Assembly: GCA_011620135.1 (NCBI GenBank)
Contig: WOZS01000005.1
Coordinates: forward strand, 1-59,601
Source: Gammaproteobacteria bacterium
Lineage (GTDB): Bacteria; Pseudomonadota; Gammaproteobacteria; WOZS01
Length of the DNA stretch: 59,601 nt
Reading direction: 5' to 3'
The position numbers and the translations under genes are program-made. Shown one piece after another: positions 2,951 through 38,206 of the stretch. Within the stretch, counting starts at the first letter, position 1, and each line of letters begins with the position of its first letter. The notes below the pieces were generated by a model, which saw only the letters and a program-made list of their open reading frames with translations, did not search any database and was not told the origin of the DNA.

Positions 2951-4024
2951 CTAACTGATGCGCCGCAGCAGAACCAGGCCCAGGATCAGCACCATGGTAC
3001 CGGGCAGCAGCGCAGGCAGTGGCGCACCCATGGCTATGGTGACGCCCAGATAGATGGTGAGCTTGTTGAGCACATAGAAACCGATGCCCAGGCTCAACCC
3101 CAGCACCAGTCGCCGCCCGCTTGAGGCTCGCCCCCAGGTGCCCAAGGCCAGGGGGACTGCCAGCAGCAGCAAGGCCATGATGGACAGGGGGCTGGCCAGT
3201 TGCTGCCAGAGGGCATAGCGGTAGGGGTTGGGGTCCTGGTGTTGCTGGCGAAAGGTTCTGATGATGGCAATCAGCTTGGATGGGGGCAGGCTTTCTGTGG
3301 GCAGCAGCAGCAAACCGAGGTTGCCCGGCGGCAGCGGCGAGGAGATGCTGAGTGTCTCTTGCAATGGGGTGCGCACCAGCATGTTGCCTTGCATGTGGCG
3401 CACCACCACCCGAGAGAGCAGCCAGGGCTGCCCATGGCGCACCAGGACGTTGGCCGCACTGATGCTTTCCTGCAACAGGCCATCCTTGTCGAAATACAGC
3501 AGATCCACATCGCTGAGATGCTGACCATGACGGATGCCGCGGACCCGCATGACGAGCCCATCATGGCGCACATAGAAGCCTTGTTTGCCCGTCTCCTGGG
3601 CAGGCAGGGATTCGGTCTTGAGCGCCTTGTTGAGATAGGCGCTTCTGGCCAGGGGTGGCATGATCCATTGGGCCAGTGCAATGTCGGCCAGCAGCAGGAT
3701 CGAGCCCGTGACAAGGACTGCCTTGGTGATCTCTCGCACCGACAGGAAGCATGAGCGGATCACCAGCAGCTCACAGGACTGGTTCATGGCCCCCAGGGCC
3801 ACGGAAACACCCAGCAATGCGATCACCGGCAGCAAGCCGATGATGGTCTGCGGCAGGGTCAAAAAAACAAAAAGCAGCGCGTCCAGCAGGGTATAGCGGC
3901 CAGGTTCCAGATCATCGATCTCCTGGACCAGGATAATGACGCTGAACAGGCCGCCCAGCGCCATGGTCACCATGATGAAGCCACGCAGCAGTTGGGCTGC
4001 TATATAGCGCTGCAACCGGTTCAT
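2951..4024 (-). CDS. lptG: LptG/YjgP-YjgQ family permease, probably a sphingolipid-locus paralogue
   Basis: True start is MNRLQRYIAAQLL at 4024 (ATGA overlap with lptF stop), not the 730-aa ORF start. 3 TM, beta-jellyroll, 3 TM; YRYALWQQLASPLS motif. Confidence 0.85.
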   Translation of the reverse strand: MNRLQRYIAAQLLRGFIMVTMALGGLFSVIILVQEIDDLEPGRYTLLDALLFVFLTLPQTIIGLLPVIALLGVSVALGAMNQSCELLVIRSCFLSVREITKAVLVTGSILLLADIALAQWIMPPLARSAYLNKALKTESLPAQETGKQGFYVRHDGLVMRVRGIRHGQHLSDVDLLYFDKDGLLQESISAANVLVRHGQPWLLSRVVVRHMQGNMLVRTPLQETLSISSPLPPGNLGLLLLPTESLPPSKLIAIIRTFRQQHQDPNPYRYALWQQLASPLSIMALLLLAVPLALGTWGRASSGRRLVLGLSLGIGFYVLNKLTIYLGVTIAMGAPLPALLPGTMVLILGLVLLRRIS

Positions 4025-5139
4025 GATCGATGCCTGCTCAGCATGAGCCCTATCAGCAGGGCACCCAGCACCGCGATGGGAATCAGGAACAGGCCGGGGA
4101 TGGCCGGCAGGTTGTTGGACTGCATGAAACCTTTGAGGGCGGCTCCGCTGTTGTAATAGAGGGCTGCCACGGCCAGGGCAACCAATACCTTGCCAAAGCG
4201 GCCCTTGCGTGGTGGGCCTCTGCTCAGCGGTATGGCCAGGATGCCGAGCATCACCGCAGAGACCGGTGACCACAGGCGCCATTGCAGTTCGGCGGTGTTC
4301 GAGGGCGTTGCTTCCTGCCACAGCCTGGCGCTGGGAAGCGCCTTGGTCTTGGTGACGGCCTCCCGGGGCGGAGGCAGCGGAATATGCACCATGAGAACCT
4401 GGAAATGCACCGCTGTATCCGCCTGGGGTGGCGCGGCCAGGATATAGAGCCAGCCCTTCTGGAAAAGCAGGCCGTGACCGCTTGCTTCCTCGCCGGCCCC
4501 TGTGTGTTCCGTCACAGCCTGGGCGCGGATCACCCAACGCGATGTGCCGTTTTGCTGATCGAAATACACACCGGTCAGCTGGTTTCCCGCACGACCCTCG
4601 GCAAAGAGCACACTCCTGCCCAGCAACTGGAAGTGGCCGGGCTCCAGGCTGGTGAGGCTCAGGTTTTGCATGGCCGCGCGCCTTTGCTCGTAGAGCATGC
4701 CGTAGCCCCATGGCCTGACCAGCAGGCTCAGGTAGGCGGCGACACCAGCCACCAGCAGGATTAACGGCAGCAAGGCCTGGAACAGCTGCGGTCCACCCCA
4801 ACCTGCCGCCTTCATGGCCACCAGTTCCTGGTCGCTCTGCAGCCTGCCAAGACCGATGATCATGGAAAGATACAGTGCCATGGGCATCAGTACATCCATG
4901 GCCAGCAGCAGCTTGATGCCCACCACCCGACCCAGCGCGCCAGGCGTGAGCAGGCCGGCATGCTGGGAGATCAGCTCGCTGGTGGCGAGGTAGCCCGCAA
5001 AGATGCCCATCAATACCCCAAGGACACCCAGCAGTGGCCTGGTGATCTCCCAGAGCAGATAACGATGGAGATGGCCGCCGATCCAGGACAGCTCTGAAGA
5101 GAACGTTCTGGAAATGTCCAGGGTACTTGAATCGTTCAT
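4021..5139 (-). CDS. lptF: LptF/YjgP-YjgQ family permease, probably a sphingolipid-locus paralogue
   Basis: HRYLLWEI, GRLQSDQELVAMKAAG, LEPGHF, AELQWRL motifs. Start uncertain (5139 or 5175). Confidence 0.85.
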   Translation of the reverse strand: MNDSSTLDISRTFSSELSWIGGHLHRYLLWEITRPLLGVLGVLMGIFAGYLATSELISQHAGLLTPGALGRVVGIKLLLAMDVLMPMALYLSMIIGLGRLQSDQELVAMKAAGWGGPQLFQALLPLILLVAGVAAYLSLLVRPWGYGMLYEQRRAAMQNLSLTSLEPGHFQLLGRSVLFAEGRAGNQLTGVYFDQQNGTSRWVIRAQAVTEHTGAGEEASGHGLLFQKGWLYILAAPPQADTAVHFQVLMVHIPLPPPREAVTKTKALPSARLWQEATPSNTAELQWRLWSPVSAVMLGILAIPLSRGPPRKGRFGKVLVALAVAALYYNSGAALKGFMQSNNLPAIPGLFLIPIAVLGALLIGLMLSRHRS

Positions 5140-5325
5140 GCAAGATGACGCGTCATGCCCGGCGGGTTGACCCAAGATAAAACAGGAGCAATCGGTAGTA
5201 TACTATTCATTGAACTGTCACCGAAAATACAAGAAAATGTCATCAAAGGATATTTCCTGGAATCTGGAATTAGGAGAAATACTCATGCATAGCCGCATTA
5301 TCGCAAAAATAGGTCTGTTCAAGCC

Positions 5326-6096
5326 ATGCGCGCGGTAATTCTCAGTGCAGGTCGTGGCCAGCGGCTGATGCCCTACACCGCAGCGCAACCAAAATGCCTG
5401 GTGTCGGTCCTGGGCAAGCCCATCGTGCAATGGCAGATCGATCTTTTGCTGGATCACGGCATCGATCAGGTAGTGGTGGTGATCGGCTATGGTGCCGAGC
5501 AGGTGGAGAAGGTCTTGCATGATCACTATGGCGATGGGGTAACGTGCGTCTTCAATCCCTTTCACCACCTGTGCGATAACCTCATCAGTGCCTGGATGGC
5601 CCGGCCTTTCCTGCAGGGCGACTGCCTCCTGCTGAATGGCGATACGCTGATGGATCATGGCGCCATGGAGACCGTGCTTGCGGGCAAGGAAGGTCCTGTG
5701 GTGCTGGCCGTGCATCGCAAGCCCGTCTATGATGGCGACGATATGAAGGTCCAGTTGCAGGATGAGCGGCTGGTCCACGTCGGCAAACGCCTGTCTGATC
5801 CCATCGATGCCGAATCCATCGGCTGCATCCGCTTCAATGGAACGGGGGCCGGCTGGTTTTGCCATGCACTGGAAGAGGCGGTACGTGATGAGACGTCTTT
5901 GGGGCAATGGTATCTCTCGGTGATCGATCGCATGGCCGGCCAGCATCCAGTCTGGACCCAAGATATTGGCCAGAACCAATGGGCCGAGCTGGATTGTCCG
6001 GCCGATTTGGCCCATCTGCGGGAGGTATTGCCCCGCTGGAATCTGAGGAAGCATGGGTGGCATGCCGCGATGCCAAATGAACCCAAAGCAGGGTAG
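5326..6096 (+). CDS. Phosphocholine/phosphoglycerate-type cytidylyltransferase (LicC/CpgD-like nucleotidyltransferase)
   Basis: MRAVILSAGRGQRL...PKCL, LLNGDT, DDMKV, AESIG motifs of the NTP_transferase family. Substrate unknown. Confidence 0.8.
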   Translation: MRAVILSAGRGQRLMPYTAAQPKCLVSVLGKPIVQWQIDLLLDHGIDQVVVVIGYGAEQVEKVLHDHYGDGVTCVFNPFHHLCDNLISAWMARPFLQGDCLLLNGDTLMDHGAMETVLAGKEGPVVLAVHRKPVYDGDDMKVQLQDERLVHVGKRLSDPIDAESIGCIRFNGTGAGWFCHALEEAVRDETSLGQWYLSVIDRMAGQHPVWTQDIGQNQWAELDCPADLAHLREVLPRWNLRKHGWHAAMPNEPKAG

Positions 6097-6122
6097 GGTT
6101 TATCTGCTGCCTGCTGATTTGC

Positions 6123-6992
6123 TCAACATGCCGCAGCCCGGCGCGCCAAGCATTGTTCCACCAGCATGAGGTCTGCGAGGCTGTCCACGTCAACCGCCGC
6201 TTCGGGCTCATTGAGCACCACAACGCCGATGCGCAGCGCAAAGCGCGCCGAGAGCCGGTGCAGAAGACCTGCCAGGGAGAGCCGGCCCAAGGCATAGGAC
6301 AGCAGGATGCCCGGGCCAAGGCGGCGCGCCATGGTGAAGGGTTGCTTGCGGGCATCCTCCAGTTGCTGCCAGAACGCCACCACCCGGCTTGCATGGGCGT
6401 GGCGCAGGGCAAACAGGTTGGCGCCACAAAAGGCCCCTTCCGCAAAGCGCAGTCTGGTGCGTTTGGAGCCCGGGAAGGCGCTGGCGACACGCTCATGCGG
6501 CACGAGCCCGACGGCCAGGTCCAGTTGGCCATGGCTTGCCGAGGCACAGAAGGCATCGATGATGGCTGGTGTCAGCAGGGCATGGTCGGCGGTGGTAAGC
6601 AGGATGGGCAGCGTGAGATGGCCGAGGCAGGCGGCGGCGCTGCGTGCCGGACTGGCTTGCGGCACCCAATAAGTGCATGCAAGCCCTGGCCTCGCCTGAT
6701 GCAGGCGCTGCGCCAATGCATCGGCTTGCGGAGGATGCGGGCTATCCCACGGGCCGCACAGGGCGACATGGGCGATGGCCTGGCTGGCCTGCAACGCACC
6801 GAGCACCCGCTCCAGCATGGGTTGGCCGGCGACGGGTGCCAGTGCCTTGTGGGTCACACCACGAGCCTCCGCTACCGGATCGGTCCCATGGCGCGCTCCA
6901 GCCAGAACCAGCGCCGTCCAGTTGGCTTGTGGGCGAGCAAAAGCAAAAGATTGCTCCTGGACGATGTCAGTGCTGTTCCAGGGCGCGCTCAT
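6123..6992 (-). CDS. MobA-like NTP transferase (NTP_transf_3) of sphingolipid loci
   Basis: ALVLAGAR..DPVA...HKAL.PV.GQPML and PILLTTADHALL motifs. Start chosen at ATG 6992, overlapping the bCerS 3' end; uncertain. Confidence 0.75.
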   Translation of the reverse strand: MSAPWNSTDIVQEQSFAFARPQANWTALVLAGARHGTDPVAEARGVTHKALAPVAGQPMLERVLGALQASQAIAHVALCGPWDSPHPPQADALAQRLHQARPGLACTYWVPQASPARSAAACLGHLTLPILLTTADHALLTPAIIDAFCASASHGQLDLAVGLVPHERVASAFPGSKRTRLRFAEGAFCGANLFALRHAHASRVVAFWQQLEDARKQPFTMARRLGPGILLSYALGRLSLAGLLHRLSARFALRIGVVVLNEPEAAVDVDSLADLMLVEQCLARRAAAC

Positions 6993-8109
6993 AGATGCGG
7001 TAGCGTTTGTAGGCGATCCCTCCGATCGCCTCGATGATGTCGCGCATGGGGCGGTTTTGCTCCAGGATCCAGGACAGCTCCACCTGTTCCAGGCCGCGCC
7101 GCAATGCAGGCTCCCGCAGGGTATGGATGGCGCGCAGGGCAAGGGCAGCTCCCAGGATGGAGTGCTGGTGGATACGCCGTACGCCCATCAGGGCCACCCG
7201 TCCCCAACGGGGGTAGGCCCCGCCGCCCTTGAGACGCCAGAGCAGCTTGAGAAGGCCGGTTGGGAACAGCCTGCCATGGAGATCCCTGATCACCTCGTTG
7301 AGATTCGGCAGCATGACGATCATGCTCGCAGGTTCGCGATCCACCAGGGCCATCTGGATGAAATCGTCATCCACGATGAAGCGCAGCGCCTGCCCCAGTT
7401 GCTGGAACTCCTTCTGGGTAAAGGGGATGAATCCCCAGTTGTCCGCCCAGGCATCGTTGAAGATGGCGCGCATGGTCTCCAGTTCCTCGGTAAGCCTGTT
7501 GCGCTGCAAGGGGCGGATCGTGATGCGTCGAGCGGTGCGCTGCAAGAGGCGTTCCATGGTTTGCGGCACGGGAAAATCCGGCTTGATGCGGTAAGCCAGC
7601 AGATCCTGGATGCCCCGGTAGCCGCAGCGGGAGATGCGCTGGTCATACCAATGCCGGCCGTGGGGCATCATGATCACAGGCGGTGTCTCGAAACCCTCCA
7701 CCAGGCAGCCGATCTCCTCATTCACAGAAAGGCTGATGGGCCCGCGCAGGCAATGCGCCCCGAAGCGTCTCGCCCATTGCATTGCAGCCTCGAGCAAAGC
7801 GGCAAAGACGGCCTGGTCGTCCACTGCCTCGAGCATGCCGAAAAAACAGGCCCCATCATGGTGGTATTCCTGATGCAGCCGGTCGTACTGTGCGGTGATG
7901 CGGCCCACGGGGCGCTTGCCGTCGAGACATACGAAGGCCGCCACCTCGGCGTGCTCCCGCAGAGGGCTCTTTTTCGACAAGCGCATGGCCTCTTCCAGCC
8001 GCAGCGGCGCCACCCATGCCGGGTCGTCCTGGTAGACCAGATGGGGCACGTCCAGAAATTGCTGACGCTCGCGGCGCGTGGCGACCTGCGTGACTACCAG
8101 TTGCTGCAT
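6967..8109 (-). CDS. bcerS: Bacterial ceramide synthase (tandem-GNAT N-acyltransferase)
   Basis: PHLVYQDDPAWVAPL, VGRITAQ, FFGMLEA, RGPISLSVNEEIGCLVEGF..PP..MMP, AFNDAWADNWGF-like, LSWILEQN motifs; lies next to the spt operon. Confidence 0.8.
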   Translation of the reverse strand: MQQLVVTQVATRRERQQFLDVPHLVYQDDPAWVAPLRLEEAMRLSKKSPLREHAEVAAFVCLDGKRPVGRITAQYDRLHQEYHHDGACFFGMLEAVDDQAVFAALLEAAMQWARRFGAHCLRGPISLSVNEEIGCLVEGFETPPVIMMPHGRHWYDQRISRCGYRGIQDLLAYRIKPDFPVPQTMERLLQRTARRITIRPLQRNRLTEELETMRAIFNDAWADNWGFIPFTQKEFQQLGQALRFIVDDDFIQMALVDREPASMIVMLPNLNEVIRDLHGRLFPTGLLKLLWRLKGGGAYPRWGRVALMGVRRIHQHSILGAALALRAIHTLREPALRRGLEQVELSWILEQNRPMRDIIEAIGGIAYKRYRIYERALEQH

Positions 8110-8638
8110 AGTATGCTATGAATTTCCATGGCTACCCCAAGTACCAGAGAAGCCGGTACTCGAGAAGCCAGTATGTGATAGCTGGCGTATAATGACATCA
8201 GTTCGGGCGGCAGGAAGCATGAGCATCGTAGGACAGATGCCCTGATGAATGCAATGGTTCCCGGGAATGGGGTGAACCTTATAGCGGCCTGGCCGGTTTT
8301 CTGCATGCGGTTTCTTGTATTCGGCGCAGGGTTTGCGCCATAATGGTTTCCTAATTTAGATAATTTTGGATTTATGGCCTCAGGGCCTGCCATGTGGCAG
8401 TATGAAAAGCGCCATACTGCTGGGGATGCGGGCGAGGGCAAAAGGGCAGCCATGGGCTTGTTGCTTGCAGGCAGGCCAAGGGGTTGGCGCGGAGGCATGG
8501 TGTGTTTATGATCCATGGGTAATGCAGGGCAGTTATAAAACGAGAGGCATGGGAAAAGGGGCCTGATGCATGGGCTGCTGGCACCCCATTCTGGCCTGTT
8601 CAGACCTTGAAAAAGGTCAGAAAAATGGAGATGACACA

Positions 8639-10420
8639 TTGACCGAGGCGATCACAGCAACAACCAACAGCGCTCTGCCCTTACGTCTAGGTACATTTGA
8701 AACGCTAACAGAAGCCCTGGAATTCGCCGCAGGTGGTGAGACGGGTTATAACTTTCATAATGGCCGCGGTGCCCTGGAAGAAGCCGTACCCTATGCGCTG
8801 TTGCGCGATCAGGCACAGGAACTGGCGCGCCGCCTGCTGGGCTGTGGGCTCAGGCGCGGCGATCGCCTGGCGCTGATTGGCGAGACCTGGCCTGGGTTCG
8901 TCCGTTTTTTCTTTGCCTGTCAATATGCCGGGCTCGTTCCCGTGCCACTGCCAGCCACCCTGCAACTGGGCGGGCACAAGGCCTATGTGAAGCGGCTGCG
9001 TGCCCTGGTGCAGGCCGCGCAGGCCACCATGGTGGCAAGCCCCATGAGCCTGACGGCGCTTGTGGCGGAGGCTGTGGACGAGCTGGGCATTGCGGTGGTG
9101 GATGAAGACCATCTGCTGGCGGACTGCAGAGCCAGCACCCAACCCCTTGTGCCATCGCGGCCCCATGAACTGGCCTACCTGCAGTTCACCTCGGGCAGTA
9201 CGCGTTTTCCCAGGGGCGTGATGATCACCCAGCGGGCGGTCATGGCCAACCTGCAGGGCATCGTCCAGCATGGGCTCATGGTGCGCCCGGGAGATCGCTG
9301 TGTCTCCTGGCTGCCGTTTTATCACGACATGGGGTTGGTGGGGCTGGTGTTGGGCCCCTTGGCAAGCCAGCTTTCCGTGGATTACCTGCGGACCAGCGAT
9401 TTTGCCATGCGTCCCCGGCAATGGCTGCATCTCATGAGTCAACTCGAGGCCACCATCTCTTTTGGACCGCCTTTCGGCTATGAGCTTTGTGCCCGGCGCC
9501 TGCGCTCTGGGGATATCGCCGAATTGCGCCTGCACGCCTGGCGGGTGGCGGGCGTGGGTGCTGAGACCATCCGCATCGACTCGCTCAAGCGTTTTGCACA
9601 ATTGCTGGAACCTGCGGGCTTCGATGCCCGTGCCTTCGTGCCTTGCTATGGGATGGCCGAATGCTCCCTGGCGGTGAGTTTTGCGCCCTTGGGTCAGGGT
9701 GTGACCATCGAGCAGCTTCACGGAGAAATCCTGGCCCAGGACCTCAGGGCCGTGCCCGCCGATCCGCAGACAGCGCGTCGCGTGGAACTGGCCCGTTGCG
9801 GCCGGGTGCTGCCCGGACTGGAATTGGCTGTGCGCGATGGCCTGGGCCGGCCGGTGGCCGAGCGTACCTTGGGCGTGGTCCATGTGCGTGGCCCCTCTGT
9901 CATGGAAGGCTATTTTGCCGATCAGGCGGCCACAGCAGAGGTCCTCTCGCCAGACGGTTGGCTCAACACGGGTGATGTGGGCTATCTGGTGGATGGCGAG
10001 CTGGTAATCACGGGGCGCATCAAGGATATGATCGTGATCCATGGACGCAACATTTGGCCGCAGGATCTGGAGATGCTGGCCGAACAGCACGAGGGTGTTC
10101 GGCCAGGCGATAGCTCGGCGTTTGCTGTGGTGGATCCTGGCGGTGGCGAGTTGGCGGTGCTGGTGATCCAGTGCCGTGCCAAGGATGATCAGGAGCGTGC
10201 CGGGTTGATCGGCGCCCTGCGGTCAGCCATTCAGGCCGAGTTCGGTATCGATTGCCTGATCGACCTGGTGCCACCTCATACCCTGCCGCGCACCTCCAGC
10301 GGCAAACTGTCCCGTTCCGGCGCGCGACAGGATTTTCTGCGCCGTCGCAGCTGGCCCCAGGCCGATACCCAGGCCATGGGTCTGGAAGGATTGGAGGCTC
10401 CGCAGAGCGCTGTGGGATGA
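8639..10420 (+). CDS. Fatty acyl-AMP ligase / acyl-ACP synthetase
   Basis: LQFTSGSTRFPRGV, SWLPFYHDMGL, PCYGMAE, TGDVG, GRIKD, LPRTSSGK. TTG start at 8639 follows a GGAG RBS. Confidence 0.9.
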   Translation: MTEAITATTNSALPLRLGTFETLTEALEFAAGGETGYNFHNGRGALEEAVPYALLRDQAQELARRLLGCGLRRGDRLALIGETWPGFVRFFFACQYAGLVPVPLPATLQLGGHKAYVKRLRALVQAAQATMVASPMSLTALVAEAVDELGIAVVDEDHLLADCRASTQPLVPSRPHELAYLQFTSGSTRFPRGVMITQRAVMANLQGIVQHGLMVRPGDRCVSWLPFYHDMGLVGLVLGPLASQLSVDYLRTSDFAMRPRQWLHLMSQLEATISFGPPFGYELCARRLRSGDIAELRLHAWRVAGVGAETIRIDSLKRFAQLLEPAGFDARAFVPCYGMAECSLAVSFAPLGQGVTIEQLHGEILAQDLRAVPADPQTARRVELARCGRVLPGLELAVRDGLGRPVAERTLGVVHVRGPSVMEGYFADQAATAEVLSPDGWLNTGDVGYLVDGELVITGRIKDMIVIHGRNIWPQDLEMLAEQHEGVRPGDSSAFAVVDPGGGELAVLVIQCRAKDDQERAGLIGALRSAIQAEFGIDCLIDLVPPHTLPRTSSGKLSRSGARQDFLRRRSWPQADTQAMGLEGLEAPQSAVG

Positions 10421-10424
10421 GGCG

Positions 10425-11348
10425 ATGGCGCTTGTCGCCTTGACCGGGGCCACGGGTTTCGTGGGTAGCGCCCTTGCTCGTTTCCTCATGCAGCGCGGCG
10501 ATCGGGTGCGTCTCCTCCACCGCAGTGAAGCACCTCCTTTTGCCCTCTCTCAGGGCTCCATGTGGGTGCGGGGCGACCTTGACGACCAGGCCGCCCTGGA
10601 TAGAGTGGTTGACGCAACCGATGCGGTGGTTCACTGCGCTGGGGCCATTCGCGGTGCTACAGCGGCAGTCTTTCAGCACACCAACGTGACAGGGACCAAA
10701 AACCTGATGAATGCAGTGAGCAGACAGCCCATGGTGCCATATCTGGTGGTGCTCTCCTCGCTGGCCGCCCGTGAGCCCCAGCTGTCTCATTACGCCAGAA
10801 GCAAGCAGGACGAGGAGCAGGTGGTGGCCCAGAGCGGTCATGCTGCTGTGGTACTGCGACCGCCGGCCATCTATGGACCGGGGGACAAAAGCCTGGCTGA
10901 CCTGTTTGCCTTCCTGCAGCGGGGTTGGTGTCCCATGGTCGGGCGGGGCCGGTTTTCATTGCTTTATATCCATGATCTGCTGGAGGCCATCGCTGTGCTG
11001 CTGCAGCAGCGTCCCTGTGGCGTCATGGCCTTACATGATGGTCGGGAAGGGGGCTATGGCTGGGCGGATGTGGCTCAGGCAGCCCAAAGCGTACTGGGGC
11101 GTCGCGTGCGCTGTTTCAGGCTGCCAGACAACCTGGTGCGTGTGCTGGCGGCCTGCAATACGGCGCTGGGACGGCTGCGGCGTGCCGATCCCCTGTTCAC
11201 CACCGGCAAGGCCCGCGAGCTGCTCCACGCCGACTGGGTCTGTGACAATGCGGCCATCCTAGCGGCGTGCTCCTGGCAGCCCGCATGGCCATTGGCTCGG
11301 GCCATGGGGGCCATGTGGGGCCAGCAGGGCACCCAGGGAATGCCATAA
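10425..11348 (+). CDS. cerR: Extended SDR NAD(P)-dependent reductase, probable ceramide (3-oxo) reductase
   Basis: TGATGFVG Rossmann motif, SSLAA, YARSK catalytic motif, RPPAIYGPGD. cerR identity inferred from its position between the ligase and ACP/spt. Confidence 0.75.
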   Translation: MALVALTGATGFVGSALARFLMQRGDRVRLLHRSEAPPFALSQGSMWVRGDLDDQAALDRVVDATDAVVHCAGAIRGATAAVFQHTNVTGTKNLMNAVSRQPMVPYLVVLSSLAAREPQLSHYARSKQDEEQVVAQSGHAAVVLRPPAIYGPGDKSLADLFAFLQRGWCPMVGRGRFSLLYIHDLLEAIAVLLQQRPCGVMALHDGREGGYGWADVAQAAQSVLGRRVRCFRLPDNLVRVLAACNTALGRLRRADPLFTTGKARELLHADWVCDNAAILAACSWQPAWPLARAMGAMWGQQGTQGMP

Positions 11349-11602
11349 TGGCCCAAGAAAAGCAGGTGGCCCAGGTGATCCTACAGGCCCTGGCGCCATG
11401 GAGTGCACAGCCTGTGACCGAAACCAGCCGGTTTGGAGAGGATATTGCGCTGGATTCGGTGCAATTGATGGAGCTTTTGATGGCGCTCGAGGATCATTTC
11501 GACATAACCATTCCCATGAATGCCGTGGGCGATGTGGCAACAGTGGGAGATCTGTGTGACCTGTTGACCAGGATCCTGGCTGCCCGGGATCGGGGTACGT
11601 GA
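11348..11602 (+). CDS. Dedicated acyl carrier protein
   Basis: 84 aa, acidic, LDSVQLMEL phosphopantetheine site (Ser37), LEDHFDITIP. TAATG overlap with the upstream stop. Confidence 0.9.
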   Translation: MAQEKQVAQVILQALAPWSAQPVTETSRFGEDIALDSVQLMELLMALEDHFDITIPMNAVGDVATVGDLCDLLTRILAARDRGT

Positions 11603-12798
11603 TGCAGGCCAGACCACCTGCCATCTTTCGACGCCTGGAAGAACTGGAGGCTAAGCGTGCGCAGCTGGCCGCAGCCGGGCAGGTGGATCCTTTCTCCGTG
11701 CAGTTCGATCGACCGCTTTCGGCTACGGAAGCCCTGTGGCAGGGTCGGCCAGTGATCCTGTTCGGCAGCAACAATTATCTGGGGTTGAGCTTTGATGCCA
11801 CCTGCCAGGAAGCTGCCTGCCTGGCGGTGCGGCAAGAGGGTACAGGCACCACGGGTTCGAGGATGGCCAATGGCAGCTTCGCAAGCCACCGCGCCTTAGA
11901 AGAGCAACTGGCGGCCTGTTTCGGGTTTCCCTACTGCACCATGTTTTCCGCGGGCTACCTGGCTAATCTGGGCGTGATTGCCACGCTGGCAAGCGATGTG
12001 GTGGTGCTGGATGCCGAATCCCATGCCAGCATCTATGATGGCGCGCGCCTCAGCGGCGCTGATATCGTGCCCTTTCGCCATAATGATCCAGACGATCTGG
12101 ACAGACGGCTGCGCCGACTGGGCGCGCGGGCCTATGGGGCACCTGTGGTCATCGAGGGCCTGTACAGCATGATGGGGGATACCGCTCCCATCGCCGAGAT
12201 CGTGGCGGTCAAGGAGCGCCACGGCGCTTTGCTGGTGGTGGACGAGGCTCATTCCTTTGGCGTGCTGGGGGCGCGTGGCTGCGGCAAGGCCGAGGCCGAC
12301 GGCGTGCTGGATCGCGTGGACATGGTGGTGGGCACCTTCAGCAAGAGCCTTGCTGGGGTGGGCGGCTTTGCCACTGGGCCACACCCCCAGTGGGCTGCCT
12401 TGCGCCTGGCGAGCCGCCCTTATATCTTCACGGCGTCGCCCAGCCCGGCCACGGTGGCTGCCACCCAGCAGGCGCTGGCCATCATTACATCGGATCGGGG
12501 GGCTGCGCTCCGTGAACGGCTGGGTGGCCATGCCCGCAGGCTGCATGCGGGACTCCGGGACATGGACTGGCGATTGGGGGCCGAACCTGGTCCTGTGGTG
12601 GCGGTTGTCCTGGAGGATGCCCAGCGTACCTTGCACCTGTGGCATGCCCTGCTGGAGCGGGGCTATTATGTCAACATGATGATCCCGCCTGCTTCACCAA
12701 GGGGCTTGTCCCTGTTGCGGCTTTCCTTGAGCGCTGCCCACGGGGATGAGCAGATCGATGGTCTGCTCGCAGCTTTTGACGCCCTGCGTCAGACGTAA
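11599..12798 (+). CDS. spt: Serine palmitoyltransferase (alpha-oxoamine synthase)
   Basis: GSNNYLGL, GSRMANG, HASIYDG, DEAHS, PLP Lys in TFSKS, PPASP loop. These resemble bacterial SPTs more than BioF/Kbl; context agrees. Confidence 0.88.
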   Translation: MMQARPPAIFRRLEELEAKRAQLAAAGQVDPFSVQFDRPLSATEALWQGRPVILFGSNNYLGLSFDATCQEAACLAVRQEGTGTTGSRMANGSFASHRALEEQLAACFGFPYCTMFSAGYLANLGVIATLASDVVVLDAESHASIYDGARLSGADIVPFRHNDPDDLDRRLRRLGARAYGAPVVIEGLYSMMGDTAPIAEIVAVKERHGALLVVDEAHSFGVLGARGCGKAEADGVLDRVDMVVGTFSKSLAGVGGFATGPHPQWAALRLASRPYIFTASPSPATVAATQQALAIITSDRGAALRERLGGHARRLHAGLRDMDWRLGAEPGPVVAVVLEDAQRTLHLWHALLERGYYVNMMIPPASPRGLSLLRLSLSAAHGDEQIDGLLAAFDALRQT

Positions 12799-36296: not shown

Positions 36297-38206
36297 GCGA
36301 GCCAGGGTCCGCCAGGGTTACCAGGAATCCCAGCAAAAAGGCACCTCCCCTCCATGCCCTGACGCTGGGGGCGTTGGGCATCGTCTTTGGCGACATCGGC
36401 ACAAGCCCCCTGTATGCCCTGCGCGAGGCGTTTTCCGAGCTGTCCGGCCTACAGGTGACCACAGGGCATGTCCATGGTGTCGTCTCGTTGATCATTTGGT
36501 CTTTGCTGTTCGTGATCTCGCTCAAGTACCTGGTGGTGATGCTGCGCGCCAACAATCGGGGCGAGGGCGGTATCCTGGCGTTGGTGGCGCTGCTGGGACC
36601 CTGGCAGCAAGCCAGAGACCAGCGTTCCCACCTGCTCCTGGTCCTGCTCGGGTTGCTGGGGGCTGCCTTGCTGTATGGCGACAGCACCATTACGCCGGCC
36701 ATCTCGGTGCTCAGTGCCATCGAGGGGCTTGCCATGCCTGCACCGCAACTCGCCCATTGGTCCATGCCGCTTGCCATGGCGGCACTGGTGGCCCTTTTTG
36801 CCGTGCAATCCAGGGGTTCGACCAGGGTTGGTGCCCTGTTTGGACCAGTGATGCTGTTTTGGTTTTTGGTGGTAGGCGCTTTGGGTTTGGCTGGTATCAT
36901 CCGCCATCCCATGATTCTCCAGGCCCTCGACCCTCAATGGGGCATCTCCTTTCTCACCCACAGTCCCAAGCAGGGTTTTTTCACCCTGGGGGCCGTCTTC
37001 CTGGCGGTGACCGGGGCCGAGGCGCTGTATGCCGACATGGGCCATTTTGGGGCCAGGCCCATCCGGCTCGCCTGGATCGTGGTGGTCCTGCCGGCCTTGA
37101 TCCTGAACTACCTGGGCCAAGGGGCCATGCTGCTCAGCAAGGAGGGTGCGGCCCAGCATCCCTTCTTTGCCTTGGCCCCTGCCTGGGCGCTGTATCCCTT
37201 GATCGGGCTGGCAACACTTGCTGCCATCATTGCCTCGCAGGCGGTGATCACCAGCGCCTTTTCACTGACCCGCCAGGCAGTGCAGCTGGATGTGCTGCCG
37301 CGCATGAAGATTCAGCAGACCTCTTCGGAGTCCTATGGCCAGATCTATGTCCCGCTGGTCAATTGGCTGTTGTTGTTGGCCACCGTGGGTCTGGTGATCG
37401 GCTTTGGCGATTCTGGCTCCCTGGCGGGGGCCTATGGCATTGCGGTCTCGGCCAACATGGTGATCACCACGATCCTGGTGCTGTTCCTGCGCAAGGTCTT
37501 CGGGTCCTCAGCCTGGTGGGTCCTGCCGTGTGCCTGTGGTTTTTTTGTGATTGATGCCGCCTTTTTCCTGGCCAACGGCATCAAGGTGGCCTATGGCGGC
37601 TGGTACCCGTTGTCCGTCGCCACGGTGCTTATGGTGATCATGAGCACCTGGCGGCGTGGCCGGCAGCTGCTGAGGGAGCGCCTCCAGCCCGCCAGCGAAC
37701 CATTGCAGACGTTCATCCAGCGCCTGCAACAGGAGCCGCCGGTGCGTGTGCCAGGTATTGCCGTATTCCTGACTGCCTCGCCACCATGGACACCCCCTAT
37801 GCTCCAGCATCATCTGGAGTACAACCGTGCCTTACAAGAACAGGTGATCCTGCTCACCGTGCAGGTGGCAGGCGTACCGCGGGTGCCGGCCTCCAAAAGG
37901 CTGGAATGGCATTCATTTGGCGAAGGGGTGCACGGTGTGCTTGTGCGCTATGGGTTCAATCAGGCAGTGAATGTGCCGGTGGCGCTGCGCCTTGCCGAGG
38001 AAACCCATGGCATAAGGCTGGATCTTGAGTCTGTCACCTATTACGTGGGCCGAGAGACCATGATCCCTTCAGCCGAGAAGCCGGGCATGGCGTTGTGGCG
38101 CGAACATCTATTCGCCTTTCTGGCGCGCAATGCGCTCAGCGCGGCGGCCTATTATGGTATCCCCCCGGAACATGTGGTGGAGCTGGGTATCCAGGTGGAG
38201 CTGTGA
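36293..38206 (+). CDS. kup: KUP/HAK/KT potassium transporter
   Basis: GIVFGDIGTSPLYA, NRGEGG, YGDSTITPAISVLSA, TGAEALYADMGHFG, GQIYVP. Confidence 0.96.
   Translation: MSEPGSARVTRNPSKKAPPLHALTLGALGIVFGDIGTSPLYALREAFSELSGLQVTTGHVHGVVSLIIWSLLFVISLKYLVVMLRANNRGEGGILALVALLGPWQQARDQRSHLLLVLLGLLGAALLYGDSTITPAISVLSAIEGLAMPAPQLAHWSMPLAMAALVALFAVQSRGSTRVGALFGPVMLFWFLVVGALGLAGIIRHPMILQALDPQWGISFLTHSPKQGFFTLGAVFLAVTGAEALYADMGHFGARPIRLAWIVVVLPALILNYLGQGAMLLSKEGAAQHPFFALAPAWALYPLIGLATLAAIIASQAVITSAFSLTRQAVQLDVLPRMKIQQTSSESYGQIYVPLVNWLLLLATVGLVIGFGDSGSLAGAYGIAVSANMVITTILVLFLRKVFGSSAWWVLPCACGFFVIDAAFFLANGIKVAYGGWYPLSVATVLMVIMSTWRRGRQLLRERLQPASEPLQTFIQRLQQEPPVRVPGIAVFLTASPPWTPPMLQHHLEYNRALQEQVILLTVQVAGVPRVPASKRLEWHSFGEGVHGVLVRYGFNQAVNVPVALRLAEETHGIRLDLESVTYYVGRETMIPSAEKPGMALWREHLFAFLARNALSAAAYYGIPPEHVVELGIQVEL

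What the first reader, a model, noticed from the sequence alone, without database searches (positions are those of the whole stretch)
5326..6992. Two convergent nucleotidyltransferases with no partner transferase or ceramide kinase: unknown headgroup
Seen: a LicC/CpgD-like and a MobA-like NTP transferase end 26 bp apart. The locus has no DAG/ceramide-kinase, CDP-alcohol phosphotransferase or metallophosphoesterase gene. Established: Caulobacter anionic ceramide-phosphoglycerate synthesis uses such Cpg enzymes. Inference: the acceptor step is encoded elsewhere, or this host makes a different headgroup. This is the most likely source of new chemistry in the window.
Basis: partly seen in the sequence, partly recalled or inferred. 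Interest (0 to 1): 0.62.

Follow-up and report, generated by a model that had tools for sequence, protein, structure and literature searches.

The report
Sphingolipid headgroup nucleotidyltransferase gene pair
The two tail-to-tail enzyme genes beside the ceramide synthase gene match two Caulobacter genes needed to make the anionic sphingolipid ceramide diphosphoglycerate, and the partner enzymes missing from this locus lie on other pieces of the same genome, so this is a scattered copy of a known pathway rather than new chemistry.

Summary
A 256-aa NTP_transferase (5326-6096 +) and a 289-aa MobA-like NTP_transf_3 protein (6123-6992 -) converge with a 26-bp gap. The window holds no DAGK_cat, CDP-alcohol phosphotransferase or metallophosphoesterase gene.

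The pair is not orphaned. It is the conserved module cerS -> CC_1153-like NTase, then convergent cpgD, as published for Caulobacter (CC_1154, CC_1153, CC_1152). I found the same module in 7 of 12 alphaproteobacterial cpgD-bearing loci, in a 4-Mb genome (L007) and in two close relatives (L055, L056).

The partners are on other scaffolds of this 2.1-Mb genome:
- cpgA-like CDP-alcohol phosphotransferase, C14:~60180-61580 (profile E 3e-89)
- cpgB-like kinase, C74:27083-28111 (E 1.4e-23, full length)
- cpgC-like, C45:35431-36306
- a CC_1158-like metallophosphoesterase next to cpgC

No LicD was found.

Gene 1 carries the catalytic Arg, Lys and Asp of the cytidylyltransferases. At matching motif positions it also has the residues reported to contact CDP-glycerate in CpgD.

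Verdict: this is a dispersed ceramide phosphoglycerate/diphosphoglycerate pathway, already described as dispersed in Nitrosomonas eutropha. The "different headgroup" reading is not supported.

One modest lead: in 301 alphaproteobacterial genomes cpgD and cpgA occurred in exactly the same 12. The CC_1153-like gene occurred in 26, all with cpgC, which suggests a core role rather than a CPG2-only role.

The parts
5326..6096 (+). cpgD-like cytidylyltransferase (CC_1152/CCNA_01210 family), 256 aa; predicted CTP:phosphoglycerate cytidylyltransferase that makes CDP-glycerate
   Evidence: Pfam NTP_transferase and NTP_transf_3. Best PDB sequence hits are LicC 1jyk and IMPCT 4jd0, with the G-x-G-x-R-L, PK and NGD motifs aligned. 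It is 37-44% identical to single-copy alphaproteobacterial homologues that sit in sphingolipid clusters and 43% identical to the L007 cluster gene.
6097..6122 (.). 26-bp spacer between the two convergent stop codons
   Evidence: Sequence read directly; no terminator-like hairpin found. The close relatives L055 and L056 have a 25-bp spacer.
6123..6992 (-). CC_1153/CCNA_01211-like MobA-type nucleotidyltransferase, 289 aa; last gene of the cerS operon; substrate unknown
   Evidence: Pfam NTP_transf_3. Full-length match to the uncharacterised TTHA0179 (PDB 2dpw), E 5e-20 by sequence and Foldseek rank 1, TM 0.87. AlphaFold model pLDDT 92.8. More than 2,500 homologues with invariant TTADHALL, CGCNLF and AAVDVD motifs. 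Lies directly downstream of cerS in most loci examined.
6967..8109 (-). bacterial ceramide synthase (bCerS, CC_1154-like), 380 aa; its stop overlaps the start of the CC_1153-like gene by 26 nt
   Evidence: Weak GNAT hit. It is 38-50% identical to the cerS-position genes of L007, L008 and the alphaproteobacterial loci. The same 26-nt overlap occurs in L055 and L056.
4021..5175 (-). LptF paralogue (LptF2), divergent from cpgD across a ~150-bp AT-rich spacer
   Evidence: Pfam LptF_LptG 2.5e-47. A second lptFG pair lies beside pepA on C21. Same position as in L007, L055 and L056.
2951..4024 (-). LptG paralogue (LptG2), 357 aa; its start overlaps the lptF2 stop
   Evidence: tblastn with the L007 and L008 LptG-position genes; start located.
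8570..10420 (+). fatty acyl-AMP ligase / acyl-ACP synthetase (AasR, CC_1165-like)
   Evidence: Pfam AMP-binding; NCBIfam fatty acyl-AMP ligase 771 bits.
10425..11348 (+). CerR-type SDR reductase
   Evidence: Pfam Epimerase; 36% identical to the L007 cluster gene.
11348..11602 (+). dedicated acyl carrier protein (AcpR-like)
   Evidence: tblastn with the L007 PP-binding gene; frame read.
11599..12798 (+). serine palmitoyltransferase
   Evidence: NCBIfam SerpalmtaseBetaP equivalog, 528 bits, above its 500-bit cut-off.

Best explanation
The two genes are this organism's copies of Caulobacter cpgD (CC_1152/CCNA_01210) and CC_1153/CCNA_01211. They form the conserved module 'cerS -> CC_1153-like NTase, convergent cpgD' inside a ceramide synthesis and export locus (spt, acp, cerR, acyl-ACP synthetase, bcerS, lptF2G2). 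Gene 1 most likely makes CDP-glycerate from CTP and 2- or 3-phosphoglycerate. The cpgA-like CDP-alcohol phosphotransferase on scaffold C14 would then use that donor to add the second phosphoglycerate to ceramide phosphoglycerate. Ceramide 1-phosphate would come from the cpgB-like kinase on C74 and the first glycerate step from the cpgC-like protein on C45, with a CC_1158-like phosphoesterase beside it. Gene 2 is a catalytically plausible nucleotidyltransferase of unknown substrate that is translationally coupled to cerS. Genetics in Caulobacter show its orthologue is needed for the diphosphoglycerate lipid. Shown here: gene identities, synteny, presence of all partner genes elsewhere in the genome, and co-occurrence patterns. 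Inferred: the enzymatic activities and the lipid product.
For: Family and fold:
- Pfam hits for both genes.
- Gene 1's best PDB sequence hits are LicC and T. maritima IMPCT 4jd0. IMPCT is the protein reported as the top structural homologue of CpgD (PMC12275187).
- The catalytic Arg, Lys and Asp align to 4jd0.
- N85, S88, N104-G105-D106, M140, K154, S164 and W195 sit in motifs invariant across 14 orthologues. Their spacings fit the published CpgD contacts N90, T93, N110-G111-D112, M147, K161, S170 and W201 (PMC13228409).

Synteny:
- Caulobacter CC_1152, CC_1153 and CC_1154 are consecutive genes, and N. eutropha has cerS and the CC_1153 orthologue adjacent, followed by the lptGF paralogues and cpgA, cpgB and cpgC (PMC11324152).
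- L007 has cerS, MobA-like, convergent NTP_transferase, lptF, lptG, CDP-OH_P_transf, DAGK_cat and a 317-aa gene in one run.
- Seven of 12 alphaproteobacterial loci and the relatives L055 and L056 show the same convergent pair.

Partners elsewhere in the own genome:
- tblastn with the L007 genes.
- Profiles of syntenic genes: CpgA hits C14 at 3e-89 (PgsA scores 3e-4), and CpgC hits C45 at 1.7e-62.
- CpgB hits C74 at 1.4e-23, full length; the other lipid kinase scores 2e-5.
- A CC_1158-like metallophosphoesterase lies next to cpgC.

Other:
- No LicD in the genome.
- Co-occurrence: cpgD and cpgA occur in exactly the same 12 genomes.
Against: - I had no Caulobacter sequence. Orthology to CCNA_01210 and CCNA_01211 rests on synteny, on unnamed alphaproteobacterial homologues, and on published identities for N. 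eutropha.
- The residue mapping to CpgD uses published numbers with three 1-residue offset shifts, not an alignment.
- The cpgB candidate is only 23-26% identical to syntenic CpgBs.
- The 3' end of cpgC is cut by a 100-N scaffold gap.
- No lipid or expression data exist for this uncultured organism.
- A GT1 glycosyltransferase near cpgC could mean additional glycosylated ceramides.
- The substrate of gene 2 is unknown in every organism.
Confidence: 0.82

Rival explanations
1. The host makes a different polar ceramide headgroup (for example phosphocholine, phosphoinositol, phosphoethanolamine or a phosphonate). Gene 1 would activate that alcohol-phosphate and gene 2 a second moiety.
For: Gene 1's best PDB sequence hit is the phosphocholine cytidylyltransferase LicC, followed by an inositol-1-phosphate cytidylyltransferase. 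COG1213-type enzymes are known to be promiscuous (PMC12275187). The substrate of gene 2 is unknown.
Against: No LicD in the genome. Only two CDP-alcohol phosphotransferases exist: PgsA beside uvrC, and the cpgA-type protein with its N-terminal cytoplasmic domain. The full cpgA, cpgB, cpgC and CC_1158 complement is present. The residues proposed to hold the glycerate moiety are kept. Gene 1 clusters at 37-44% identity with the cluster-borne orthologues, against a hit to LicC that aligns only residues 2-99.
Confidence: 0.08
2. The CC_1153-like gene (gene 2) is not a CPG2-specific enzyme. It would be a core partner of bCerS and CpgC in the first headgroup step, while only cpgD plus cpgA form the CPG2 add-on.
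For: In 301 evenly drawn alphaproteobacterial genomes the CC_1153-like gene occurs in 26, all of which have cpgC. Fourteen of the 26 lack both cpgD and cpgA. In those 14 it still sits directly downstream of cerS in 8 loci. In this window it overlaps the cerS stop by 26 nt. The Caulobacter CC_1153 mutant accumulates ceramide as well as CPG and grows slowly (PMC11324152).
Against: The Caulobacter CC_1153 mutant still makes CPG and loses only CPG2 (PMC11324152). Co-occurrence among sphingolipid producers is confounded by shared ancestry. cpgA was not searched outside the 26 genomes. Some genomes are incomplete MAGs.
Confidence: 0.35
3. The two NTases have nothing to do with sphingolipids and serve LPS, capsule or cofactor synthesis (sugar-1-P activation, or MobA/CobY/CofC-type cofactor chemistry). 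Their position would be accidental.
For: Source annotations of homologues read 'GTP:adenosylcobinamide-phosphate guanylyltransferase' or 'MocA'. Foldseek neighbours after 2dpw are GlmU, KdsB and IspD.
Against: The position beside cerS is conserved from Alpha- to Beta/Gammaproteobacteria. There is published genetic evidence for both Caulobacter genes in CPG2 synthesis. No NCBIfam equivalog model reaches its cut-off for either protein.
Confidence: 0.03

Closest known systems
CpgD (CCNA_01210 / CC_1152), CTP:phosphoglycerate cytidylyltransferase of Caulobacter crescentus (PMC12275187; structures in PMC13228409)
   Same: Same Pfam families. IMPCT 4jd0, reported as the top structural homologue of CpgD, is gene 1's second-best PDB sequence hit after LicC. 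Same catalytic Arg, Lys and Asp. Matching motif positions for the reported cytosine and glycerate contacts. Sits next to the CC_1153-like gene and cerS. Co-occurs perfectly with cpgA in the sampled genomes.
   Different: No direct alignment to the Caulobacter protein was possible here. Ser replaces Thr at the position mapped to T93 and Cys sits at the position mapped to T88 (a backbone contact). The own protein has a ~15-residue C-terminal tail not seen in most orthologues. Activity is untested.
CC_1153 / CCNA_01211, MobA/CofC-like NTP transferase required for CPG2 in Caulobacter (PMC11324152)
   Same: Same domain and size (289 aa against 291 aa). Same place directly after cerS. Convergent with cpgD.
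   Different: Biochemical function is unknown in both. The model's nearest solved structures are TTHA0179, then GlmU, KdsB and IspD, not CofC or MobA. The glycine-rich loop is replaced by L-A-(G/A)-x-R.
Split phosphosphingolipid gene set of Nitrosomonas eutropha C91 (Neut_0458-0461, Neut_1100-1106, Neut_0267/0268; PMC11324152 S2D Table)
   Same: A non-alphaproteobacterial set of ceramide, cpg and lptF2G2 genes spread over several genomic regions.
   Different: Here cpgD stays beside the cerS operon, whereas cpgA, cpgB and cpgC are each on a different scaffold. In N. eutropha cpgABC are contiguous with cerS and cpgD is apart. A CC_1158-like phosphoesterase is present here, whereas no orthologue was reported for N. 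eutropha.
TTHA0179 of Thermus thermophilus (PDB 2dpw), uncharacterised transferase
   Same: Full-length sequence match (E 5e-20) and fold match (TM 0.87) to gene 2, including the C-terminal helical extension.
   Different: No known function, and no sphingolipid context known to me.
LicC (PDB 1jyk) and T. maritima IMPCT (PDB 4jd0)
   Same: Same GT-A-like cytidylyltransferase fold and N-terminal CTP-binding signature as gene 1.
   Different: The LicC match covers only residues 2-99. No LicD is present, and the genome's one other CDP-alcohol phosphotransferase, PgsA beside uvrC, is the housekeeping type. The M140 position is Ser in 4jd0.

Membership tests
CpgD-type CTP:phosphoglycerate cytidylyltransferase | COG1213/NTP_transferase fold with catalytic Arg (R16), Lys (K26) and Asp (D112) | tested here: met
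   Pfam PF00483 and PF12804. R13, K23 and D106 align to the corresponding 4jd0 residues in the phmmer alignment. They are invariant in 14 orthologues.
CpgD-type CTP:phosphoglycerate cytidylyltransferase | Residues contacting cytosine (T88 backbone, T93) and the glycerate moiety (N90, N110, S170 via water, M147, K161) | tested here: inconclusive
   Own C83, S88, N85, N104, S164, M140 and K154 lie in invariant motifs (ADNLxS, NGD, DDMKV, GKxL, ESIG). Spacings equal the published numbering or differ by one residue. The mapping was done from residue numbers in PMC13228409, not from the CpgD sequence.
CpgD-type CTP:phosphoglycerate cytidylyltransferase | Genomic association with cerS and CC_1153, and co-occurrence with cpgA | tested here: met
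   The convergent pair lies beside cerS in this window, in L007, L055 and L056, and in 7 of 12 alphaproteobacterial loci. cpgD-positive and cpgA-positive genomes are the same 12 of the 26 tested. The own genome has cpgA on C14.
CpgD-type CTP:phosphoglycerate cytidylyltransferase | Forms CDP-glycerate from CTP and phosphoglycerate | not testable with these tools
   Needs an enzyme assay.
CpgD-type CTP:phosphoglycerate cytidylyltransferase | Reciprocal best match to CCNA_01210 | not tested
   No Caulobacter sequence could be fetched; the primer-based scan missed it. Indirect support: each sampled alphaproteobacterial genome has a single strong hit (E <= 6e-47), with a clear gap to generic NTases (about 4e-13).
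CC_1153 / CCNA_01211 family (cerS-linked MobA-like NTase) | NTP_transf_3 domain protein of about 290 aa | tested here: met
   289 aa against the published 291 aa.
CC_1153 / CCNA_01211 family (cerS-linked MobA-like NTase) | Encoded directly downstream of bcerS | tested here: met
   Overlaps the cerS stop by 26 nt here and in L055 and L056. Adjacent to cerS in L007, L008 and 15 of 26 alphaproteobacterial loci.
CC_1153 / CCNA_01211 family (cerS-linked MobA-like NTase) | Required for CPG2 formation | not testable with these tools
   Genetic evidence exists only for Caulobacter (PMC11324152).
Ceramide (di)phosphoglycerate pathway (whole system) | CpgB-type ceramide kinase (DAGK_cat, GGDG motif) | tested here: met
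   C74:27083-28111 scores 82.9 bits, E 1.4e-23, over the full length of a profile of 8 syntenic CpgBs. The other lipid kinase (C21) scores 23 bits. A GGDG motif is present. Identity is only 23-26%.
Ceramide (di)phosphoglycerate pathway (whole system) | CpgC (Tam41-like, no Pfam hit) | tested here: met
   C45:35431-36306 (-): profile E 1.7e-62 and 35% identity to the L007 gene. Its 3' end is cut by a scaffold gap.
Ceramide (di)phosphoglycerate pathway (whole system) | CpgA, a CDP-alcohol phosphotransferase with an N-terminal cytoplasmic domain | tested here: met
   C14:~60180-61580: profile E 3e-89. The DxxDGxxAR...G...D...D motif was read. Pfam PF01066 covers residues 213-305 of 421.
Ceramide (di)phosphoglycerate pathway (whole system) | CC_1158-type metallophosphoesterase (non-essential in Caulobacter) | tested here: met
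   C45:~36334-37270 (+): 44% identity to the phosphoesterase of the Caulobacter-like locus L030, with Pfam Metallophos. Homologues lie beside cpgA or cpgB in L034, L039, L048 and L051.
Ceramide (di)phosphoglycerate pathway (whole system) | CPG and CPG2 lipids actually made | not testable with these tools
   Needs LC-MS/MS.
LicC/LicD phosphocholine decoration | LicD-type phosphocholine transferase present | tested here: not met
   PF04991 finds nothing in the own genome at E <= 0.1, while the controls B. subtilis and L. lactis ring.

The most novel reading that the evidence does not exclude
The cerS-coupled CC_1153-family nucleotidyltransferase (gene 2) may be a core enzyme of bacterial phosphosphingolipid headgroup synthesis that works with CpgC, for example by supplying a nucleotide-activated donor or intermediate for the first glycerate step. 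Only cpgD plus cpgA would then form the CPG2 add-on. This would revise the published placement of CC_1153 in the CPG-to-CPG2 step and would point to the missing activation chemistry of CPG synthesis.
Probability: 0.3. Interest if true: 0.45.

Novelty: new member of a known kind. Interest (0 to 1): 0.17.

Why it matters
For this window it matters little. It extends a pathway described in 2022-2026 (anionic ceramide phosphoglycerates that can stand in for LPS in Caulobacter) to an uncultured, small-genome Beta/Gammaproteobacterium. It also shows that apparent gaps in such loci should be checked genome-wide before new chemistry is proposed.

The useful by-product is comparative. cpgD and cpgA behave as one evolutionary unit, which fits the proposed CDP-glycerate donor-and-transferase pair. 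The still uncharacterised CC_1153 family follows cerS and cpgC instead. That narrows where to look for its substrate.

Tried and rejected
- To fetch the Caulobacter locus I scanned genome contigs with a 21-nt stretch of a published cc_1153 deletion primer. One of the hits (Mesorhizobium) was reused as an entry point for sampling Alphaproteobacteria.
- PF09139 (Tam41) as a probe for cpgC has no power: even the Caulobacter control does not ring.
- The look-up of encoding contigs on the Nitrosovibrio homologue P0041 found nothing on record.
- A paper search for ccna_01211, cpgE and CC_1153 returned only unrelated hits.
- My first fingerprint test, which required the published CpgD residue numbers to fit one start codon in the alphaproteobacterial homologues, failed. 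None of the 12 sampled genomes has Caulobacter's numbering, so I used motif-based mapping instead.
- The C21 DAGK_cat gene beside the housekeeping lptG looked at first like cpgB plus cpgC because the gene sizes match (320 and 323 aa). It was rejected: it is a MamU/YegS-type lipid kinase and scores only 23 bits on the CpgB profile.
- I looked for a terminator hairpin in the 26-bp gap and found none.
Full report
**Observation**

The window is scaffold C26 of a 2.1-Mb, 76-scaffold genome of about 62% G+C.

- ORF 5326-6096 (+, 256 aa) hits Pfam NTP_transferase, NTP_transf_3 and, weakly, IspD.
- ORF 6123-6992 (-, 289 aa from the ATG at 6992) hits NTP_transf_3.
- The + gene stops at 6094-6096 and the - gene at 6123-6125, so the spacer 6097-6122 is 26 bp. 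It holds no terminator-like hairpin.

**Context**

The surrounding genes form a complete ceramide locus:

- hda (~2252-2944 +)
- an lptG/lptF pair (2951-4024 -, 4021-5175 -)
- gene 1 (5326-6096 +)
- gene 2 (6123-6992 -)
- a 380-aa GNAT-like gene (6967-8109 -) that matches the cerS-position genes of other loci
- a fatty acyl-AMP ligase (8570-10420 +)
- a CerR-type SDR (10425-11348 +)
- an ACP (11348-11602 +)
- serine palmitoyltransferase (11599-12798 +; NCBIfam equivalog above its cut-off)

Gene 2's start overlaps the cerS stop by 26 nt, so gene 2 is the last gene of the cerS operon. Gene 1 is a separate unit, divergent from lptF across a ~150-bp AT-rich spacer.

**What the literature says**

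In Caulobacter the consecutive genes CC_1152, CC_1153 and CC_1154 are a nucleotidyltransferase, a 291-aa MobA/CofC-like NTP transferase and bcerS. Mutants in CC_1152 or CC_1153 keep ceramide phosphoglycerate (CPG) but lose ceramide diphosphoglycerate (CPG2) (PMC11324152).

CC_1152 (CCNA_01210) has since been named CpgD. It makes CDP-glycerate from CTP and phosphoglycerate (PMC12275187), and crystal structures define its contacts (PMC13228409).

The same PLoS Pathogens paper reports that N. eutropha carries the orthologues in three separate regions: Neut_1100 cerS, 1101 CC_1153, 1102/1103 lptGF paralogues, 1104-1106 cpgA, cpgB, cpgC; Neut_0268 cpgD; Neut_0458-0461 ceramide genes.

**Synteny found here**

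A homologue of gene 2 on a 4.0-Mb contig (L007) sits in a single run: spt, acp, cerR, ligase..., cerS, MobA-like, convergent NTP_transferase, lptF, lptG, CDP-OH_P_transf (410 aa), DAGK_cat (321 aa) and a 317-aa gene with no Pfam hit. This is the mirror image of the window as far as lptG. After that L007 continues with cpgA, cpgB and cpgC, where the window has hda.

- Two close relatives (L055 and L056; gene 2 is 84% identical) have the window's layout, including the 26-nt cerS/gene 2 overlap and a 25-bp convergent spacer. They too lack cpgABC nearby.
- In 301 evenly drawn genomes of the class of a Mesorhizobium genome (Alphaproteobacteria), 12 have a strong gene 1 homologue (E <= 6e-47; 37-44% identity). 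In 7 of these it converges on the MobA-like gene downstream of cerS.

**Are the partners elsewhere?**

Yes. Genome-wide Pfam searches gave:

- DAGK_cat on C21, C74 and C15 (the C15 hit is NAD kinase)
- CDP-OH_P_transf on C49 (PgsA beside uvrC) and C14
- nothing on C26

tblastn with the L007 cluster genes, and profile HMMs built from syntenic CpgA, CpgB and CpgC of other loci, give the following.

| Gene | Location in own genome | Score | Next-best hit |
|---|---|---|---|
| CpgA | C14:~60180-61580 | 3e-89; 38% identity over 402 aa | PgsA, 3e-4 |
| CpgC | C45:35431-36306 (-) | 1.7e-62 | none reported |
| CpgB | C74:27083-28111 | 1.4e-23, 82.9 bits; profile positions 3-320 of 321 | C21 MamU/YegS-type kinase, 23 bits |

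The C14 protein has the DxxDGxxAR...G...D...D motif and a ~200-aa N-terminal cytoplasmic domain, as described for CC_1159.

A metallophosphoesterase 44% identical to the one in a Caulobacter-like locus (L030) lies divergently next to cpgC. Its homologues flank cpgA or cpgB in four other loci.

LicD is absent. The Tam41 Pfam model was uninformative.

**Gene 1 in detail**

The best PDB sequence hits are LicC (1jyk) and T. maritima IMPCT (4jd0). The latter is the protein reported as the top structural homologue of CpgD. R13, K23 and D106 align with the catalytic triplet.

Using the published residue numbers, the own residues G9, R13, K23, N85, S88, N104-G105-D106, M140, K154, S164 and W195 lie in motifs invariant across 14 orthologues. 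The motifs are SAGxGxRL, PKCL, ADNLxS, NGD, DDMKV, GKxL, ESIG and WYL. Their spacings are equal to CpgD's G12...W201 or differ by one residue.

This mapping is indirect, because I could not obtain the Caulobacter sequence.

**Gene 2 in detail**

The family is large (more than 2,500 hits) with strongly invariant motifs: LAxxR, KAL, TTADHALL, RRT, CGCNLF, FWxxxExxRKxP and AAVDVD.

The AlphaFold model is confident (pLDDT 92.8). Its nearest solved structure is the uncharacterised TTHA0179 (2dpw; TM 0.87). After that come GlmU N-terminal domains, KdsB, IspD and CMP-NeuAc synthetases. CofC and MobA are not among the top hits. It is a plausible active nucleotidyltransferase, but its substrate remains unknown, as it does for CC_1153 itself.

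**Phylogenetic profile**

In the 301-genome sample:

- The cpgD-like gene occurs in 12 genomes.
- The cpgA-like gene, tested only in the 26 MobA-positive genomes, occurs in exactly the same 12.
- The CC_1153-like gene occurs in 26.
- The cpgC-like gene occurs in 30, including all 26.

In the 14 genomes that lack cpgD and cpgA, the CC_1153-like gene is still directly downstream of cerS in 8 loci, and housekeeping genes follow it.

This fits the proposed CpgD-to-CpgA donor-and-transferase pair. It also suggests that the CC_1153 family has a role beyond the CPG2 step. Three caveats apply: shared ancestry among sphingolipid producers, incomplete MAGs, and the Caulobacter mutant phenotype, in which CPG is retained.

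**Verdict**

The pair is the cpgD/CC_1153 module of a known anionic sphingolipid pathway, and its other genes are scattered over four scaffolds. The 'different headgroup / new chemistry' alternative is not supported.

I rate it a new member of a known kind, of low interest. There is one modest side lead on the function of the CC_1153 family.

Noticed in passing
window 2951-5175 (-); own genome C21:8512-10627: The lptF/lptG pair in the sphingolipid locus is a second copy. The housekeeping pair sits beside pepA on scaffold C21. This matches the LptF2/LptG2 sphingolipid exporter described for Caulobacter in a 2026 preprint (10.64898/2026.04.12.717747).
   Followed up: partly
own genome C74:26031-28111 (outside the window): The cpgB-like kinase is translationally coupled (4-nt overlap) to an upstream 351-aa FA_desaturase-family membrane protein. 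This may be a sphingolipid acyl-chain or long-chain-base desaturase or hydroxylase.
   Followed up: partly
own genome C45:34111-37270 (outside the window): cpgC is divergent from a CC_1158-like metallophosphoesterase. The published survey reported no orthologue of this gene in the Beta/Gammaproteobacteria it examined. A GT1 (MGT/EryCIII-like) glycosyltransferase converges on cpgC across a 100-N scaffold gap and might glycosylate ceramide.
   Followed up: partly
L055:17379-19271 (close relative's contig): In a close relative, a 942-aa neutral/alkaline ceramidase (Ceramidase_alk plus its C-terminal domain) lies about 5 kb beyond lptG2. A bacterial ceramidase beside a ceramide synthesis locus is worth a look.
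   Followed up: no
own genome C21:6642-8592 (outside the window): A MamU/YegS-type lipid kinase (320 aa) and a 323-aa single-pass membrane protein lie directly beside the housekeeping lptG. Their sizes mimic a cpgB-cpgC pair, but the kinase scores only 23 bits, over part of its length, on the CpgB profile, and neither gene scores on the CpgC profile.
   Followed up: partly
own genome C14:~60180-60800 (outside the window): The N-terminal ~200 residues of the cpgA-like protein form a soluble domain that starts with a 'VVIPSGTQ...' strand-like motif. This recalls the fused cytidylyltransferase domain of the archaeal IPCT/DIPPS enzymes. Whether it binds a nucleotide is unknown.
   Followed up: no
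L030 (G245:C12:82800-102700): One alphaproteobacterial locus carries two cpgA-like CDP-alcohol phosphotransferases (460 aa and about 400 aa) in the same sphingolipid cluster. Several other genomes have 2-3 copies, which hints at further headgroup diversity in that family.
   Followed up: no
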